The translations under genes were made by a program, and so were the position numbers. From contig JAHILH010000001.1 in the NCBI GenBank assembly GCA_018897195.1, positions 92,565 through 156,564 of the forward strand: a stretch of 64,000 bases of DNA, written 5' to 3'. Numbering within the stretch: the first letter of the stretch is position 1; every line of letters begins with the position of its first letter. This DNA is from Patescibacteria group bacterium (GTDB lineage: Bacteria > Patescibacteriota > Patescibacteriia > Patescibacteriales > UBA12075). Positions 28,453-39,845 of this stretch are shown one piece after another. The notes beneath the pieces are model-generated. The model saw nothing but the letters and a program-made list of their open reading frames with translations, was not told where the DNA came from and ran no database searches.

Positions 28453-28479
28453 GTTTTTTAGGATGTAATCTTAGCAAAG

Positions 28480-28508
28480 TTGACATATGACCGTAAATAT
28501 GCTAATAT
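28480..28508 (+). promoter_or_regulatory. promoter for ORF 28642
   Basis: TTGACA (28480-85), 17-nt spacer, extended -10 TGcTAATAT (28500-08). Confidence 0.55.
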
Positions 28509-28641
28509 TGGCTGTATTGTTGTATTGGATTTTTGTATTGTTAAATATATTTAAGTTTGAATCTGTTAGTTCTTTTTATTATTTTAGTGATATGGTGTCA
28601 TTAAAATTTATGTAGGTGTAAAACATTTTGGAGGGTTCAAT

Positions 28642-29307
28642 ATGGTGACGTGTGAAGGTGATATGGTCGCAGTTTCTCGCGAGATCTTTGCTGAGGCGGT
28701 TCAACTTGCCACTAATTTATTGTGTAATTACTGGAAGAGCAAAAAACGATTTGCCGAGGTTGTTATTCAAGTTCAGAATGAGATTGGTGATAAGTATGAA
28801 GACGTTCTGACAGTTGGGCAGATAGAAAATTTGGAAGAGGCGGTTATTTTCGCCAGACAAACGCATTGTGATTTTATCGCTGATCAAGTGAAAAAGTTGA
28901 AGTATGTCAAAAATGAAATCAGGCGCCTAACTCCCGGTTTGAAACTTCCTAGTTCAAAGGTTTTTTTGCCAGGATCAATCCATTTTGAAGATGGAGAAGT
29001 GGTCAACGAACAATTGTTGAGGCGAGCTCTGAAAGAAGTTTTGGAAGAGCGCGTTGAAATTTTTAATGATTTTCTGAACGACAAGAAAAGGTTTGAAAAT
29101 TTTGTCAGAAAAGAGGTCAGGATTGATTATCCTGGGGATACATTTCTTGATCCAAATTTCTCGAAAAAACAGCTCGTCTATCAAGGTAGGTGTGTGCCAA
29201 AGGGTCGCGTGACCTACATTGTTCAAAAGCTTATAAATGAACGGAAAAGGATGCGTAAGGGCAAGGAATTACTTTGTAGCGAGCGCGTTTTTGATCTTGC
29301 GTCATAA
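28642..29307 (+). CDS. hypothetical protein (221 aa)
   Basis: Strong SD GGAGGG 7 nt upstream of the ATG; own promoter and terminator; no family recognised. Confidence 0.55.
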   Translation: MVTCEGDMVAVSREIFAEAVQLATNLLCNYWKSKKRFAEVVIQVQNEIGDKYEDVLTVGQIENLEEAVIFARQTHCDFIADQVKKLKYVKNEIRRLTPGLKLPSSKVFLPGSIHFEDGEVVNEQLLRRALKEVLEERVEIFNDFLNDKKRFENFVRKEVRIDYPGDTFLDPNFSKKQLVYQGRCVPKGRVTYIVQKLINERKRMRKGKELLCSERVFDLAS

Positions 29308-29348
29308 GCCTTGATCGTTTATGAAAAACATCTGATAGTGTTATTGCC

Positions 29349-29386
29349 AATGGCGTTGTTCAAAATAGAACAGCGCCATTTTTTTG
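29349..29386 (+). terminator. intrinsic terminator after ORF 28642
   Basis: 13-bp stem AATGGCGTTGTTC / GAACAGCGCCATT followed by T7. Confidence 0.85.
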
Positions 29387-29392
29387 GTATAA

Positions 29393-29424
29393 TAAAAAAA
29401 ATAACGCTAAAATTAGCGTTATTT
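29393..29424 (-). terminator. intrinsic terminator downstream of tRNA-Gln
   Basis: ATAACGCT-aaaatt-AGCGTTAT, followed on the minus strand by T8. Confidence 0.7.
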
Positions 29425-29430
29425 TAATTG

Positions 29431-37400: not shown

Positions 37401-38291
37401 GAAAGGGAGAACATCTTTGATCGCCCTGGCCCGCAGTACAAGCTCACGTTTGAACCAAAACCAACCGCCCCTGAAATTCTTCAGGCAGAGAACAAGCCAA
37501 AGGTTTGTATCTTGCGTGAAGAAGGGACGAATGGCGATCGGGAGATGGCGGCAGCTTTTGAAGCCGCCGGATTTGAACCCTGGGACGTGACGATGACCGA
37601 TTTACTTGCAGAACGTGTTTCTTTAACGATGTTTCGAGGCTTGGTGGCCGCCGGCGGATTTTCTTATGCTGATGTGCCACAAAGCGCCAAGGGTTGGGCG
37701 GCAACTATTTTGTTCAATGAAAAGTTGCGGGCTGAGTTTGATAAGTTTTACAAACGGCCTGATACTTTTTCTTTGGGCGTGTGTAATGGTTGTCAGTTGT
37801 TCGGCCTACTTGGTTGGGTTCCGTATACCGGAATCAAGCCAGAACACCAACCGCGGTTCGTTCATAATGACTCCGGTCGTTTCGAATCGCGATGGTCAAG
37901 CGTCAGGATTTCGGATAGTCCATCCATTTTGTTTAAGGATATGGCTGGCTCTATTCTCGGTGTTCATGTTGCACACGGTGAAGGTAGGCTTATTTTTCCG
38001 GATGAAACTGTTAGGGCAGTAACCGTCGGTAATAAACTGTGTGCAATGTCATATGTTGATGATAGCGGGAGGGATACAAATAAATATCCCTTCTGTCCGA
38101 ACGGCAGTTGGGAAGGTGTTACAGCTCTCACAACTACCGATGGTCGGCATACAGCCATGATGCCTCATCCCGAACGTGCCTTTCTTAAATGGCAATGGCA
38201 TCATATGCCGGAACAAATGAAAAAAGAGCTTGAGGCTTCGCCTTGGCTCAAAATGTTCCAAAATGCCTATGATTGGTGCATGAAAAATTAA
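34467..38291 (+). CDS. purL: phosphoribosylformylglycinamidine (FGAM) synthase, single-chain large PurL
   Basis: 1274 aa, collinear with my recollection of E. coli PurL: [32 protein letters not shown], glutaminase [19 protein letters not shown]. Strong SD. Confidence 0.93.
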   Translation: [1274 protein letters not shown]

Positions 38292-38319
38292 CTATTATTC
38301 GATAAGGAGATAAAAAATC

Positions 38320-38355
38320 AAACCCCGTTGCTATTGCAGTAACGGGGTTTTCTAT
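38320..38355 (+). terminator. intrinsic terminator after purL
   Basis: AAACCCCGTT / AACGGGGTTT stem followed by a T-rich run. Confidence 0.8.
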
Positions 38356-38466
38356 TGACTATTTTCCTAAAATATCCTAATCTTAAATCAAATTAAGACA
38401 GGGGAGGGTTCTTTTTTTTGAATCGTTCTTTTTATTTTTATTAATATTTCGAGAAGGAGATTGGAT

Positions 38467-39696
38467 ATGTGGCACATGCAAGATTCAAATGATCAGCCTG
38501 CTGGACAAGGTGATGGTGGACAAGAAAGTCAGTATGCACAGCTTGGAGTAGATGCTCACAAAACAGGCGTGAAAAAAAGCTTTAAGCCAGTAATTGACAA
38601 CGACTATCCTTTGGCGTTTTGCAACATTGTGAAGGATCGTTTGAATCCTGGCTATGTATTGACGCAACACATGGATGGCGATGGTAGCAAAATGCTTCAG
38701 CGATTACTTCATTATCATGAAACTGGAGATGCCACCGTCTTTCGCGGCGCGGTTGATGATGCATGGTCGATGAATACCGGAGACATTGCGGCTAGCGGAT
38801 TTGTTGATGAGTTATTTTTGACTGATGTTATAAATATCAACGGAATATCTGCGCCAAAGGATGTAATAATGGAGCAGCTTGCTATCAGAATTGCCGAATT
38901 GAAACAGCTTTATATCGAGCATGGATTCGATGTAACGTTTTTCGGTGGCGAAACGGCGGACTTGCCTGATCAGGTTAAGACAGTTGTTTTTGATATCTGT
39001 GCCAGTTCCAGAGTACATGAGACTGGTCTGATTGAGGGTAATATTGAGCCCGGTGATGCGATTTTCGGAATGGCCAGCGATGGCCAAGTAGCCTGGGAAA
39101 AGGAAGGTAATTCCGGCATTATGTCGAATGGCTTAACCATGGCGCGCATCAAATTGATGCACGCGAACTATGTCAATAAACATCCGGAGCTTATGCGACA
39201 GGAAAAACCGTTCGAGGGTCGGTTCTCAATCCATGGAATGGATGAAAGACTTGGCACAATGTCAGTTTCAGAGGCAATCATGTCGCCGACACGTCAATGG
39301 GCGTTGGTTATCAAGAGGATTATCGACGGATTACGCAGTCATGACAGCCTTCATTTGCTTCATGGTGTCGTTATGAATACCGGCGGTGGCGCCACTAAGG
39401 TGTTGAATATCGGCCGGAATATTCATTATGTAAAAAAAATGCCGATACCACCACCGATTTTTCAGTTGATTAAGTTTGAATCTGGTGAAGAATGGGAAAA
39501 TATGTTTACCGCCTTTAATTGCGGGGTTGGCATTGATATTATAGGATCTGACAAGGGTGGTGTTTTGCAGGATGTCCTGAATTCGGTTTCAGAGTGGACC
39601 AGGGTGAAATTGTTTCGATTGGGTGATTGTCATCACTCGGAAAGTCCAGATAATCTCGTTACGCTCTATACGCCTTACGGTGAGTTTGCCTATTAA
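38467..39696 (+). CDS. purM: AIR synthase (PurM), long ~400-aa variant
   Basis: Start moved to ATG 38467 (SD AAGGAG 8 nt upstream). HMDGDGSK, GGETADLP and GIMSNGLT motifs of the PurM superfamily. Length and N-terminus resemble the long PurM form I recall from Bacteroidota. Confidence 0.7.
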   Translation: MWHMQDSNDQPAGQGDGGQESQYAQLGVDAHKTGVKKSFKPVIDNDYPLAFCNIVKDRLNPGYVLTQHMDGDGSKMLQRLLHYHETGDATVFRGAVDDAWSMNTGDIAASGFVDELFLTDVININGISAPKDVIMEQLAIRIAELKQLYIEHGFDVTFFGGETADLPDQVKTVVFDICASSRVHETGLIEGNIEPGDAIFGMASDGQVAWEKEGNSGIMSNGLTMARIKLMHANYVNKHPELMRQEKPFEGRFSIHGMDERLGTMSVSEAIMSPTRQWALVIKRIIDGLRSHDSLHLLHGVVMNTGGGATKVLNIGRNIHYVKKMPIPPPIFQLIKFESGEEWENMFTAFNCGVGIDIIGSDKGGVLQDVLNSVSEWTRVKLFRLGDCHHSESPDNLVTLYTPYGEFAY

Positions 39697-39720
39697 CCAG
39701 GCAGTAATAATATCTTTAAC

Positions 39721-39757
39721 AAGCCTTTGCGGGTAAATCTCGCAAAGGCTTTTTTAT
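39721..39757 (+). terminator. intrinsic terminator after purM
   Basis: AAGCCTTTGCG / CGCAAAGGCTT 11-bp stem followed by T6. Confidence 0.85.
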
Positions 39758-39845
39758 TTCCAAAAAATACCCAAACTTTATCCAGTTTTCATCTTAATAC
39801 AATAATATCCCTAAAATTGGCTATATTTACTTATAGCTATTTTTT

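What the first reader, a model, noticed from the sequence alone, without database searches (positions are those of the whole stretch)
28453..39830. 11-kb biosynthetic block whose genes use strong Shine-Dalgarno sites while the rest of the window does not
Strong SDs at 4-8 nt spacing precede ORF 28642 (GGAGGG), lysA (AAGGAGG), the aminotransferase gene (GAGGAG), dapB (AGGGAG), ORF 33541 (GGAGGA), purL (GGGAGGAGGGG) and purM (AAGGAG). I checked more than 40 other starts, including mraZ, rsmH, ftsI, greA, iscS, metG, mreB, PBP2, grpE, dnaK, dnaJ, the ABC genes and glyQS. They have A/T-rich upstream regions with no SD, and hrcA even looks leaderless. The block also looks GC-richer: sampled 60-nt lines give about 45-57% versus 30-35% in local orphan genes. 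Core host genes reach 42-52%, however, so GC alone is not decisive. The block encodes de novo amino-acid and purine steps, which are atypical for a reduced genome. The simplest readings are horizontal acquisition or a chimeric contig.
Basis: partly seen in the sequence, partly recalled or inferred. Interest (0 to 1): 0.7.

Follow-up and report, generated by a model that had tools for sequence, protein, structure and literature searches.

The report
Shine-Dalgarno-led accessory gene mosaic in a Parcubacterium
A tiny-genome (CPR/Parcubacteria) bacterium whose core genes lack ribosome-binding (Shine-Dalgarno) sites carries a genuine, correctly assembled patchwork of laterally circulating cell-wall-precursor and purine genes that all keep strong Shine-Dalgarno sites, and the same split between core and accessory genes appears in related genomes.

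Summary
Seven of 8 coding genes in 28.6-39.7 kb have a strong, well-spaced Shine-Dalgarno (SD) site, against 3 of 56 elsewhere (Fisher p=1.5e-6). Tetranucleotide composition of 30-40 kb is an outlier (z 3.3-4.5, others <=1.9). GC3 is only modestly raised (0.43 vs 0.36).

A chimeric contig is excluded. Three independent assemblies are 100% identical to the window, and one spans metG to mreB.

The block is not one imported island. It is a mosaic of separate transcription units: ORF221 | tRNA-Gln | lysA-aminotransferase | dapB | ORF83 | an SD-less csp | purL-purM. The origins differ:
- PurL is closest to Desulfobulbales (62-67%).
- Plant-type DapB belongs to CPR clades separate from the Desulfobacterota clade in a crude tree.
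- The long-form PurM is widespread in Patescibacteria.

The lysA-AT-dapB trio recurs in another CPR genome with other flanks (77-88% aa, dS>=1, dN/dS 0.06-0.15). Relatives with 86-89% MreB lack the block at this site.

The SD contrast extends beyond this block. In ten other CPR loci core genes lack SD, while GC-richer accessory genes carry it (p=2e-7). The dapB SD is present in all six CPR orthologues, so it is probably functional. The 16S anti-SD could not be checked.

The parts
26990..28408 (+). metG, the host-type left flank. No SD, GC 0.38. Terminator at 28425-28451.
   Evidence: The same contig carries metG and the block in three assemblies.
28480..29380 (+). Cassette 1. Promoter-like TTGACA-17-TAATAT (28480-28508), SD GGAGGG (28630-28635), ORF221 (28642-29307, near-orphan protein), terminator (29349-29380).
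   Evidence: No Pfam family. Only 10 relatives among 1.84 billion cluster representatives.
29430..29501 (-). tRNA-Gln (UUG) inside the block. No duplicated tRNA end or att-like repeat was found.
29635..29692 (+). lysA leader. TTGACA-17-TAATGT promoter-like site followed by a CCCTCC/GGAGGG hairpin and a T-run. The hairpin is kept in the L085 orthologue through changed bases (CCTTTCC/GGAGAGG).
29756..31097 (+). SD AAGGAGGTG (29756-29764) and a lysA-like PLP decarboxylase (29769-31097, 442 aa).
   Evidence: Pfam Orn_Arg_deC_N and Orn_DAP_Arg_deC. TIGR01048 lysA scores 219, below the cut-off of 298. The best PDB matches are diaminopimelate decarboxylases. 87.6% identical to the L085 copy, dN/dS 0.06.
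31114..32329 (+). SD GAGGAGA (31114-31120) and a class I/II aminotransferase (real start 31127, 400 aa). It is a candidate LL-DAP aminotransferase.
   Evidence: PF00155. The best NCBIfam models are LL-DAP aminotransferases, but scores are far below cut-off (153 vs 585). Gene callers use the 400-aa start. 81.8% identical to the L085 copy. Only weak PDB matches.
32356..32382 (+). Hairpin terminator between the convergent aminotransferase and dapB genes.
32464..33399 (-). Plant-type dapB (32464-33303, 279 aa), SD AAGGGAGA (33310-33317), and promoter-like TTGACA-17-TAAGAT (33371-33399). The SD is present upstream of all six CPR orthologues. The promoter and leader are conserved in the four upstream regions that were aligned.
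   Evidence: TIGR02130 dapB_plant scores 256, just below the cut-off of 294.6. PDB plant HTPA reductases match at E 1e-62. SD in all six CPR orthologues. Upstream alignment.
33541..33792 (+). ORF83, an unknown small protein with SD GGAGGA (33531-33536) and its own promoter-like site (33430-33458).
   Evidence: Called as an 83-aa gene in independent assemblies.
33911..34108 (-). Cold-shock protein gene. It has no SD, GC 0.38 and an A/T-rich leader, so it is host-type and sits between the cassettes.
   Evidence: PF00313. dG +1.7.
34346..38291 (+). Promoter-like site (34346-34373), hairpin (34385-34402), SD GGGAGGAGGGG (34453-34463), and large single-chain purL / FGAM synthase (34467-38291, 1274 aa).
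   Evidence: TIGR01735 scores 1544, above the cut-off of 1123. Closest genomes are Desulfobulbales/Thermodesulfobacteriota at 62-67%, plus one Falkowbacteria at 65%.
38454..39751 (+). SD AAGGAGA (38454-38460), long-form purM-like gene (38467-39696, 409 aa), terminator (39721-39751).
   Evidence: TIGR00878 scores only 62.5, below the cut-off of 236. PDB 3mdo and 3kiz, deposited as (putative) phosphoribosylformylglycinamidine cyclo-ligases, match at E 1e-53 and 1e-50. More than 120 homologues at 46-78% were found, and all 14 that carry an organism name are Patescibacteria or unclassified 'bacterium'.
39846..40997 (+). Perfect TTGACA-17-TATAAT promoter and mreB, the host-type right flank, without SD. 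This is the start of the conserved mreBCD-PBP2-hrcA-grpE-dnaK-dnaJ array.
45847..47019 (.). A second islet of SD-led genes. Three small unknown ORFs: 45847-46149 (+), 46390-46704 (-), 46762-47019 (-).
63062..63986 (-). A third SD-led islet. A 124-aa ORF (SD AAAGGAGAAG) and an MlaA-family gene whose start lies beyond the window and carries GAGGAGGAGG.

Best explanation
The window comes from a Candidatus Parcubacteria (CPR/Patescibacteria) genome close to Falkowbacteria. The region 28.5-39.8 kb is a genuine chromosomal accessory region, sited at a synteny breakpoint just upstream of the conserved mreBCD-PBP2-hrcA-dnaK array.

It was assembled piecemeal from gene cassettes that circulate laterally:
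- A diaminopimelate/lysine-branch trio: lysA-like decarboxylase, DapL-like aminotransferase and plant-type DapB.
- A Desulfobacterota-like large purL joined to a Patescibacteria-type long purM.
- Two orphan ORFs.

Each cassette brings its own sigma-70-type promoter, leader, canonical Shine-Dalgarno site and terminator.

In this lineage core genes start translation from A-rich, SD-less leaders. Accessory, GC-richer, laterally moving genes keep strong SDs. The SDs are probably maintained by selection and therefore read by a functional anti-SD. They are not leftovers of a very recent import.

Shown: the SD and composition contrast, the physical linkage, the mosaic structure, purifying selection on the genes, the presence of the dapB SD in all six CPR orthologues, and the same dichotomy in other CPR loci.

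Inferred: the direction and number of transfers, that the trio supplies meso-DAP or lysine for the peptidoglycan stem peptide, that purL-purM convert FGAR to AIR, and that the ribosome has a usable anti-SD.
For: Host identity: DapB is 100% identical to an NCBI 'Candidatus Parcubacteria bacterium' protein on a 565-kb contig. MreB is 84-89% identical to many Parcubacteria and Falkowbacteria proteins.

Linkage: three independent assemblies are 100% identical to the window.

SD and composition statistics.

Mosaic structure: separate promoters and terminators, with an SD-less csp and a tRNA in between.

Different origins:
- PurL is closest to Desulfobulbales, and it is not sister to the Falkowbacteria PurL.
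- In a midpoint-rooted NJ tree the DapB sequences identified as CPR fall in groups separate from the Desulfobacterota clade.
- All organism-named PurM hits are Patescibacteria or unclassified 'bacterium'.
- None of the other block genes is next to purL or dapB in the Desulfobacterota loci.

Trio elsewhere: it occurs in another CPR genome with different flanks at 88/82/77% aa identity, dS 1.0-1.7 and dN/dS 0.06-0.15.

Relatives: genomes with 86-89% MreB keep the downstream synteny but carry unrelated genes upstream.

SD conservation: the dapB SD is present in all six CPR orthologues (48-77% aa), and promoter and leader motifs are conserved in the four upstream regions aligned.

General pattern:
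- L013 purL, purM and two neighbours are SD-led, while uL11, uL1, uS15 and nusG are not.
- L088 dapB and four unknown genes are SD-led.
- So are the L170 reverse transcriptase and two other genes, the L173 MlaA and three others, and the L176 purM and MOSC genes.
- Pooled over ten loci, SD-led genes are 4.5 GC points richer than non-SD genes, p=1.7e-7.

Peptidoglycan link: dapB sits next to murE/ftsI/mraZ in a Moraniibacteriota genome. The window encodes a MurE-like ligase, two PBPs and an L,D-transpeptidase.
Against: No 16S rRNA was available, so the anti-SD is untested. Published work finds the anti-SD motif in only 48% of Parcubacteria (PMC9297842).

Avoidance of internal SD-like motifs is weak and the control motif behaves similarly.

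GC3 is largely ameliorated, and the CPR DapB groups are old. Part of the block could therefore be long-resident rather than acquired.

The only core gene shared between the window and the L085 genome (MreB, 50.6%) may be a paralogue. Recent CPR-to-CPR transfer of the trio is therefore not proven.

The trees are crude NJ trees without support values.

dapA, dapF, asd, lysC and the other pur genes are not in the window. The rest of the genome was not available, so pathway function is inferred only.

The aminotransferase, LysA and PurM all score below the NCBIfam equivalog cut-offs.

One purM orthologue (L175) has no SD and low GC.
Confidence: 0.6

Rival explanations
1. Native genes with gene-specific expression signals. 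The DAP and purine genes are old vertically inherited CPR genes lost from most relatives. Their SDs and higher GC reflect a need for strong or separately regulated translation, not lateral transfer.
For: The CPR DapB sequences fall in deep groups distinct from Desulfobacterota. Long-form purM is very widespread in Patescibacteria. The dapB SD is present across 48-77% protein identity, and promoter and leader are conserved where aligned. GC3 is only about 1.3 sd above the host mean.
Against: Genomic context differs in every genome examined. The block is absent at this locus in relatives with 86-89% MreB. PurL is nearer to Desulfobulbales than to most CPR, and only one CPR genome appears among the 80 best species representatives. 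Tetranucleotide z is 3.3-4.5. Other SD-led genes are typical mobile or foreign types such as a reverse transcriptase, MlaA and orphans. The purM orthologue in L175 has lost the SD.
Confidence: 0.2
2. The SDs are inert relics. The host ribosome has lost or hidden its anti-SD, as reported for part of the Parcubacteria and for Bacteroidia, and the SDs simply have not yet decayed since import from SD-using donors.
For: The anti-SD motif is detected in only 48% of Parcubacteria (PMC9297842). Core genes, including ribosomal-protein genes in L013, have no SD. There is no convincing avoidance of internal SD motifs.
Against: A G-rich hexamer at 4-8 nt spacing would not survive dS>=1 in a 37% GC genome without selection, yet it does between the window and L085. 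It is also present in all six CPR dapB orthologues. In the published survey, anti-SD loss overlaps the uL1-lacking group. The related Falkowbacteria locus encodes uL1.
Confidence: 0.1
3. A single recent genomic island. One 11-kb segment was imported in one event from one donor, for example a Desulfobacterota host or neighbour.
For: Contiguous SD-led genes with deviant k-mer composition. A tRNA gene lies inside the region. The nearest non-CPR relatives of both PurL and DapB are Desulfobacterota.
Against: There is no integrase, no att-like repeats and no mobility genes. Host-type csp and tRNA genes sit between the cassettes. The units are transcribed separately. PurM is a CPR-type gene and the trio is shared with other CPR. 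The genes are not linked in Desulfobacterota loci. Identity to any non-CPR donor is only 42-67%.
Confidence: 0.08
4. Assembly chimera or prophage. The block belongs to another organism or to a virus and was joined to a CPR contig by mistake.
For: The SD and composition contrast with the flanks. A 160-nt palindromic repeat family that breaks assemblies lies at 26.0-26.2 and 41.0-41.2 kb.
Against: A repeat-free contig from an independent run contains rsmI-metG, the whole block and mreB at 100% identity, and two further assemblies agree. The repeats lie outside the metG/block and block/mreB junctions. No relatives of DapB, PurM or ORF221 were found in 2.9 million viral contigs.
Confidence: 0.02

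Closest known systems
SD-poor translation in Bacteroidia (Flavobacterium johnsoniae: anti-SD sequestered by bS21/bS18/bS6, Kozak-like A-rich leaders, rpsU as the one strongly SD-led gene; PMC7797042, PMC6847099, PMC13000453, abstracts)
   Same: Nearly all genes lack an SD and have A-rich upstream regions with position-specific bias. A small minority of genes carry strong canonical SDs.
   Different: Here the SD-led minority is a set of accessory, GC-richer and apparently laterally moving genes, about 17% of genes in the window, rather than a single autoregulated ribosomal-protein gene. The lineage is CPR. Whether the anti-SD is present, sequestered or free is unknown.
Reduced CPR ribosomes and loss of the anti-SD motif in some Parcubacteria (Tsurumaki et al. 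2022, PMC9297842)
   Same: Same phylum-level group. The finding is consistent with weak reliance on SD in Parcubacteria.
   Different: That study scored the 16S anti-SD motif, not SD usage per gene. It does not describe a core versus accessory split or conserved SDs on particular genes.
Genomic islands and lateral transfer of metabolic genes
   Same: Compositionally deviant accessory genes at a synteny breakpoint, absent at that site in relatives, with nearest non-CPR homologues in another phylum.
   Different: There is no integrase, no att sites and no single donor. The region is a mosaic of independently transcribed cassettes, some of them old within CPR.
LL-diaminopimelate aminotransferase (DapL) route of DAP/lysine synthesis with plant-type DapB (from established knowledge of the pathway; PDB 5u5i, 7t34, 5ua0)
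   Same: Plant-type DapB, an aminotransferase whose best models are DapL, and LysA are clustered. In another CPR genome dapB neighbours murE.
   Different: The aminotransferase and LysA score below the equivalog cut-offs. dapA, dapF, asd and lysC were not found in the window.

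Membership tests
Canonical Shine-Dalgarno site | A purine-rich motif complementary to the CCUCC core of 16S rRNA, 4-10 nt upstream of the start codon. | tested here: met
   Seven block genes have dG -8.6 to -14.8 with spacings of 3-8 nt. 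A generic anti-SD was used, not this organism's.
Canonical Shine-Dalgarno site | A matching anti-SD at the 3' end of the organism's own 16S rRNA. | not testable with these tools
   No rRNA gene lies in the window, in the roughly 20 kb beyond its ends, or in any CPR locus fetched.
Classical genomic island | Deviant composition, and absence at the same locus in close relatives. | tested here: met
   Tetranucleotide z 3.3-4.5. Three relatives with 86-89% MreB have other genes upstream of mreB.
Classical genomic island | An integrase or recombinase, and flanking direct repeats (att), often a duplicated tRNA end. | tested here: not met
   No such domain in any block ORF. No flanking repeats and no tRNA-Gln duplication.
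Large single-chain FGAM synthase (PurL, TIGR01735) | Full-length match above the curated equivalog cut-off, with the N-terminal, two PurM-like and glutamine amidotransferase domains. | tested here: met
   1544 bits against a cut-off of 1123. FGAR-AT_N, AIRS_C, FGAR-AT_PurM_N-like and GATase_5 are present.
AIR synthetase (PurM, TIGR00878) | Score above the equivalog cut-off. | tested here: not met
   62.5 bits against 236, and no Pfam hit. It belongs instead to the long-form family of PDB 3mdo and 3kiz, which are deposited as (putative) phosphoribosylformylglycinamidine cyclo-ligases (E 1e-53 and 1e-50). The activity of that family was not checked here.
Plant-type DapB (TIGR02130) | Score above the equivalog cut-off, with the DapB N and C domains. 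| tested here: inconclusive
   256.4 bits against a cut-off of 294.55, which is just below. Both Pfam domains are present. Plant HTPA reductase structures match at E 1e-62.
LL-diaminopimelate aminotransferase (DapL) | Score above an equivalog cut-off. | tested here: not met
   The best model, NF004937, scores 152.9 against 585. No DapL structure matches at E<=1e-10. The assignment rests on gene context only.
Diaminopimelate decarboxylase (LysA, TIGR01048) | Score above the equivalog cut-off. | tested here: not met
   219 bits against 297.9. It is still the best family, and the best PDB matches are diaminopimelate decarboxylases.
Complete DAP/lysine or de novo purine pathway | Presence of the remaining steps: dapA, dapF, asd, lysC; purF, D, N/T, K/E, C, B, H. 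| not testable with these tools
   None is in the 64-kb window. The rest of the 565-kb contig could not be read.
Bacteroidia-type SD-blind ribosome | Anti-SD present but sequestered by bS21/bS18/bS6, with rpsU SD-led. | not testable with these tools
   No 16S, rpsU, rpsR or rpsF gene is in the sequence held.

The most novel reading that the evidence does not exclude
Falkowbacteria-like Parcubacteria run two translation-initiation regimes in one cell. The core genome uses SD-independent, A-rich leaders. A horizontally circulating accessory gene pool (DAP/lysine, purine, orphan and mobile-element genes) is kept SD-dependent. The SD would then act as a portable expression signal that is selectively maintained. 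It could let the cell control the whole accessory class through anti-SD availability, by analogy with bS21 control in Bacteroidia. SD presence would also be a simple marker of the mobile gene pool in CPR genomes.
Probability: 0.3. Interest if true: 0.7.

Novelty: new variant of a known kind. Interest (0 to 1): 0.45.

Why it matters
The block itself is an ordinary, if tidy, case of lateral gene gain in a reduced genome. It adds peptidoglycan-precursor and purine steps to an organism expected to scavenge them.

The more interesting result is the sharp split between core and accessory genes in Shine-Dalgarno use. The split recurs across divergent CPR genomes, and the dapB SD is still present after synonymous sites have saturated.

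If confirmed genome-wide, this would have three consequences:
- Ribosomes of these CPR lineages still read SDs, although their core genes have abandoned them.
- SD presence would give a cheap sequence marker for laterally acquired genes in CPR metagenome bins.
- How CPR ribosomes choose start sites would become directly testable.

Full-text searches for Shine-Dalgarno together with CPR or Patescibacteria found no paper describing this pattern.

Tried and rejected
- att-like or tRNA-derived direct repeats around the block: none found.
- Rfam families in the window and in seven CPR loci: only tRNAs, with no riboswitch and no rRNA.
- Walking about 10 kb beyond each end of the window in search of a 16S gene: none. 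The walk did reveal more SD-led genes.
- Viral origin: no relatives of DapB, PurM or ORF221 in the viral contig collection.
- SD as compensation for a more structured start region: folding energies of -30..+30 and -20..+20 do not differ significantly between SD-led and other genes (p=0.07 and 0.26).
- Avoidance of internal SD-like motifs as a proxy for a functional anti-SD: GGAGG is slightly depleted (37 observed vs 49 expected, z -2), but the antisense control CCTCC is depleted too. Inconclusive.
- Synteny of block genes in Desulfobacterota: purL and dapB are not linked to each other or to the other block genes there. A metG homologue lies within 10 kb of purL in 15 loci, at about 40% identity in those listed. 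I treated this as coincidence, because the window's metG is host-like in GC and leader.
- Using MreB to date the split between the window and L085 genomes: the L085 MreB is only 50.6% identical, while orthologues across Parcubacteria are 84-89%. It may be a paralogue, so I dropped the comparison.
- PurL of the window and of the Falkowbacteria locus L013 as a single shared acquisition: they are no closer to each other (65.5%) than to Desulfobulbales (up to 67%) and are not sisters in an NJ tree. Unresolved.

Full report
**What the window is.** Almost all genes lie on the + strand, mean GC is about 0.37, and G-skew is strong. The genes include mraZ, rsmH, ftsI, a MurE-like ligase, greA, an Rrf2 regulator, an L,D-transpeptidase, nifU, iscS, rsmI, metG, mreBCD, PBP2, hrcA, grpE, hsp20, dnaK, dnaJ, ABC transporter genes and a class II tRNA synthetase. 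The DapB encoded at 32464-33303 is 100% identical to an NCBI protein named 'dihydrodipicolinate reductase [Candidatus Parcubacteria bacterium]' whose longest contig is 565 kb. MreB is 84-89% identical to more than a hundred proteins, and the named ones are Parcubacteria, Falkowbacteria or 'Patescibacteria group'. The host is therefore a CPR bacterium close to Falkowbacteria.

**Checking the observation.** I folded the 22 nt upstream of each start against a generic anti-SD.
- Block genes score -8.6 to -14.8 kcal/mol, with motifs 3-8 nt from the start.
- For the aminotransferase and purM the real starts are 31127 and 38467, the starts that independent gene callers also chose.
- Seven of 8 block CDS pass -8 kcal/mol, against 3 of 56 outside (Fisher p=1.5e-6).
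- The block gene without an SD is the cold-shock gene at 33911-34108 (-).
- Outside the block, SD-led genes form two small islets. One consists of three unknown ORFs at 45.8-47.0 kb. The other is a 124-aa ORF plus an MlaA gene at 63 kb.
- Letting every gene choose its best in-frame start within 40 codons still gives only 15 of 62.
- Non-SD starts are A-rich, with A at -5 in 75% and T at -1 in 62%.
- Gene GC is 0.40-0.47 in the block. GC3 is 0.43 against 0.36, inside the range of mreB, mreC and iscS.
- Tetranucleotide composition of 30-40 kb is a clear outlier, z 3.3-4.5 against at most 1.9 elsewhere.

**Not a chimera.** Exact-protein look-ups found a 14,852-nt Logan contig from SRR11548472, a 7,178-nt one from SRR6516051 and a MEGAHIT contig from ENA ERZ27247113. 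All are 100% identical to the window. The first covers 26181-41032, that is rsmI, metG, the whole block and mreB. That contig ends inside copies of a 160-nt palindromic repeat at 26.0-26.2 and 41.0-41.2 kb. These repeats are where assemblies break, but both lie outside the block junctions. The join across the 26-kb copy is confirmed by the MEGAHIT contig, and the mreB-mreC join matches relatives.

**Anatomy.** The block is a row of separate transcription units:
- promoter, ORF221, terminator;
- tRNA-Gln on the minus strand;
- promoter-like site, hairpin leader, lysA, aminotransferase, terminator;
- dapB convergent, with its own promoter;
- ORF83 with its own promoter;
- csp on the minus strand with an A/T-rich, SD-less leader;
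- promoter, short hairpin, purL, purM, terminator.

There is no integrase, no mobility gene and no flanking repeat.

**Gene identities.**
- PurL is a bona fide large FGAM synthase: TIGR01735 scores 1544 bits against a cut-off of 1123.
- DapB is the plant type: TIGR02130 scores 256 against 294.6, and plant HTPA reductase structures match at E 1e-62.
- LysA and the aminotransferase hit lysA and LL-DAP aminotransferase models best, but below the cut-offs.
- PurM misses the standard model. It belongs to the long form represented by PDB 3mdo and 3kiz.
- ORF221 has only ten relatives among 1.84 billion cluster representatives.

**Where the genes come from.**
- PurL: the 80 best species-representative genomes are at 62-67% identity. 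Nearly all are Desulfobulbales or other Thermodesulfobacteriota. The one exception is a Candidatus Falkowbacteria MAG, L013. The window and L013 proteins are no closer to each other (65.5%) than to the Desulfobulbales and are not sisters in a crude NJ tree.
- DapB: after the self-hit come unnamed proteins at 77% and 68%, then many at 48-54%. The named ones among these are Moraniibacteriota and Parcubacteria. After them come Desulfobacterales and Thermodesulfobacteriota at 42-47%. In an NJ tree the sequences identified as CPR fall in groups separate from the Desulfobacterota clade.
- PurM: more than 120 homologues at 46-78%. All 14 hits that carry an organism name are Patescibacteria or unclassified 'bacterium'.
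- In the Desulfobacterota loci, purL and dapB are not next to any other block gene.

The block therefore has several origins. Part of it, the trio and purM, belongs to a gene pool that has been inside CPR for a long time.

**The cassettes in other CPR genomes.**
- The lysA-aminotransferase-dapB trio, in the same convergent arrangement, occurs in another CPR organism (L085-L087, three samples). There it sits between glycolytic genes and a DUF212/CAP pair. Identities are 88, 82 and 77% aa, dS 1.0-1.7 and dN/dS 0.06-0.15. The genes are under strong purifying selection, and the two copies have diverged to saturation at silent sites.
- In a complete Moraniibacteriota genome dapB stands alone beside murE, ftsI, rsmH and mraZ. 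This fits a role in making the diamino acid of the peptidoglycan stem peptide.
- The long purM is solitary in three other CPR genomes.
- purL with a different purM-like gene occurs in L013, in yet another context.
- Three relatives with 86-89% MreB keep the mreBCD-PBP2-hrcA-grpE-hsp20-dnaK-dnaJ array. Upstream of mreB each has something different: a sugar transferase and a nuclease, a reverse transcriptase and an AAA ATPase, or secA-secDF.

The block thus sits at a synteny breakpoint and is absent there in relatives.

**The SD contrast extends beyond the block.**
- In L013, purL, purM and two neighbours have strong SDs and GC 0.36-0.43 against a locus median of 0.33. nusG, uL11, uL1 and uS15 have none.
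- In L085 only dapB and lysA have an SD at the longest-ORF start. The aminotransferase start is ambiguous, as in the window.
- In L088, dapB and four unknown genes have SDs.
- In L170 the SD-led genes are a reverse transcriptase, a cohesin-like gene and an unknown gene.
- Just beyond the window, the MlaA gene and three further genes are SD-led.
- In L176, purM and a MOSC gene are SD-led.
- Pooled over ten loci, 36 of 165 genes are SD-led under the permissive any-start criterion. They are 4.5 GC points richer than the rest, p=1.7e-7.
- The exception is the purM orthologue in L175, which has low GC and no SD.

**Are the SDs functional?**
- All six CPR dapB orthologues (48-77% aa) have an SD 6-8 nt from the start. 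The -35/-10 elements and two leader motifs also align in the four upstream regions compared.
- The lysA leader hairpin is kept between the window and L085 through changed bases.
- A G-rich hexamer would not persist through dS>=1 in a 37% GC genome without selection.

I therefore infer that the SDs are read, which requires a usable anti-SD. This step is inferred and not shown, because no 16S gene was within reach. Tsurumaki et al. found the anti-SD motif in only 48% of Parcubacteria, with loss overlapping the uL1-lacking group (PMC9297842). The related Falkowbacteria locus does encode uL1, which gives weak support. Internal SD-motif avoidance was inconclusive. SD-led genes do not have more structured start regions.

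**Comparison with what is known.** As an accessory region it resembles a genomic island in composition and in being absent from relatives at this locus. It fails the integrase/att criteria and is a mosaic. As a translation phenomenon it works like the SD-poor Bacteroidia, which have A-rich Kozak-like leaders and a rare SD-led gene. The difference is that here the SD-led class is about a sixth of the genes and consists of accessory, laterally moving genes. Full-text searches for Shine-Dalgarno with CPR or Patescibacteria returned no paper describing this.

**Verdict.** The chimera reading is rejected. The horizontal-acquisition reading is right in kind, but the block is a piecemeal and partly ancient mosaic rather than one import. 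The finding is an ordinary gene-gain story. The less ordinary part is the split in SD use between core and accessory genes, seen across divergent CPR loci and apparently maintained by selection. I rate it a new variant of a known kind, of moderate interest.

Noticed in passing
window 11325-11490, 16837-16999, 26040-26207, 41006-41159, about 52140-52302: A family of roughly 160-nt intergenic palindromic elements, five copies in 64 kb. The terminal inverted repeats are about 29 nt (CGTCATTCCCGCGAAGGCGGGAATCCAGG ... CCTGGATTCCCGCCTTCGCGGGAATGACG) around an A/T-rich centre. One copy folds at -75.7 kcal/mol (z -12). Copies sit inside conserved operons (ftsI|murE, mreB|mreC, dnaK|dnaJ), 10-20 nt before the next start codon. 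Independent assemblies break at them. No Rfam family matches. They look like MITE- or REP-like elements.
   Followed up: partly
window 47202-47249: A perfect CIRCE operator (TTAGCACTC-N9-GAGTGCTAA) overlaps the -35 of the hrcA promoter. TATAAT ends 6 nt before the ATG, so hrcA is probably leaderless. The equivalent upstream region in relative L170 shares GAGTGCTAATTTTGATAT.
   Followed up: partly
window 29635-29692 and L085 upstream of lysA: Promoter-like site followed at once by a CCCTCC/GGAGGG hairpin with a T-run, about 75 nt before the lysA SD. The stem is kept in the L085 orthologue by changed bases. The 5' arm is an anti-SD mimic that could also pair with the lysA SD, so this may be an attenuator or leader switch. 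No Rfam match. A similar promoter-plus-hairpin arrangement precedes purL (34346-34402).
   Followed up: partly
window 33304-33420 (-), L085 9880-10000, L088 9860-9990, L093 2020-2150: The dapB upstream region (TTGACA, TG-extended -10, TTAAC and AATCACA leader motifs, SD) aligns across CPR genomes whose DapB proteins are only 48-77% identical. The whole expression cassette seems to travel, or be conserved, with the gene.
   Followed up: partly
window, all non-SD starts: Position-specific context at SD-less starts: A at -5 in 75%, A at -6 in 60%, T at -1 in 62%, and no G at -1 (53 genes). This may be a Kozak-like signal for this lineage.
   Followed up: partly
window 38467-39696; L175 10001-11188; L176 2664-3827; P0245 context: The long-form PurM-like protein is very common in Patescibacteria, usually as a solitary gene with no other purine gene nearby, and NCBI mostly calls it 'hypothetical'. 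Its role in organisms thought to lack de novo purine synthesis is unclear.
   Followed up: partly
window 63585-63986 (-) and L173 11306-12238 (-): An MlaA-family lipoprotein gene in a CPR genome, SD-led (GAGGAGGAGG) and GC 0.42. From established knowledge, MlaA is an outer-membrane lipid-asymmetry component of diderm bacteria, so this is probably another acquired gene.
   Followed up: no
L016, L017, L019 and 9 other Desulfobulbales-type loci: A metG homologue lies within 10 kb of purL, on the opposite strand in the loci listed. The window also has metG 6 kb upstream of purL. Identity is about 40% in the best-scoring loci and the window's metG is host-like, so this is probably coincidence.
   Followed up: no
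window 61633-62055 (-): A small membrane protein with a weak type IV secretion pilin match (PF18895, 29 bits) on the minus strand among plus-strand core genes.
   Followed up: no
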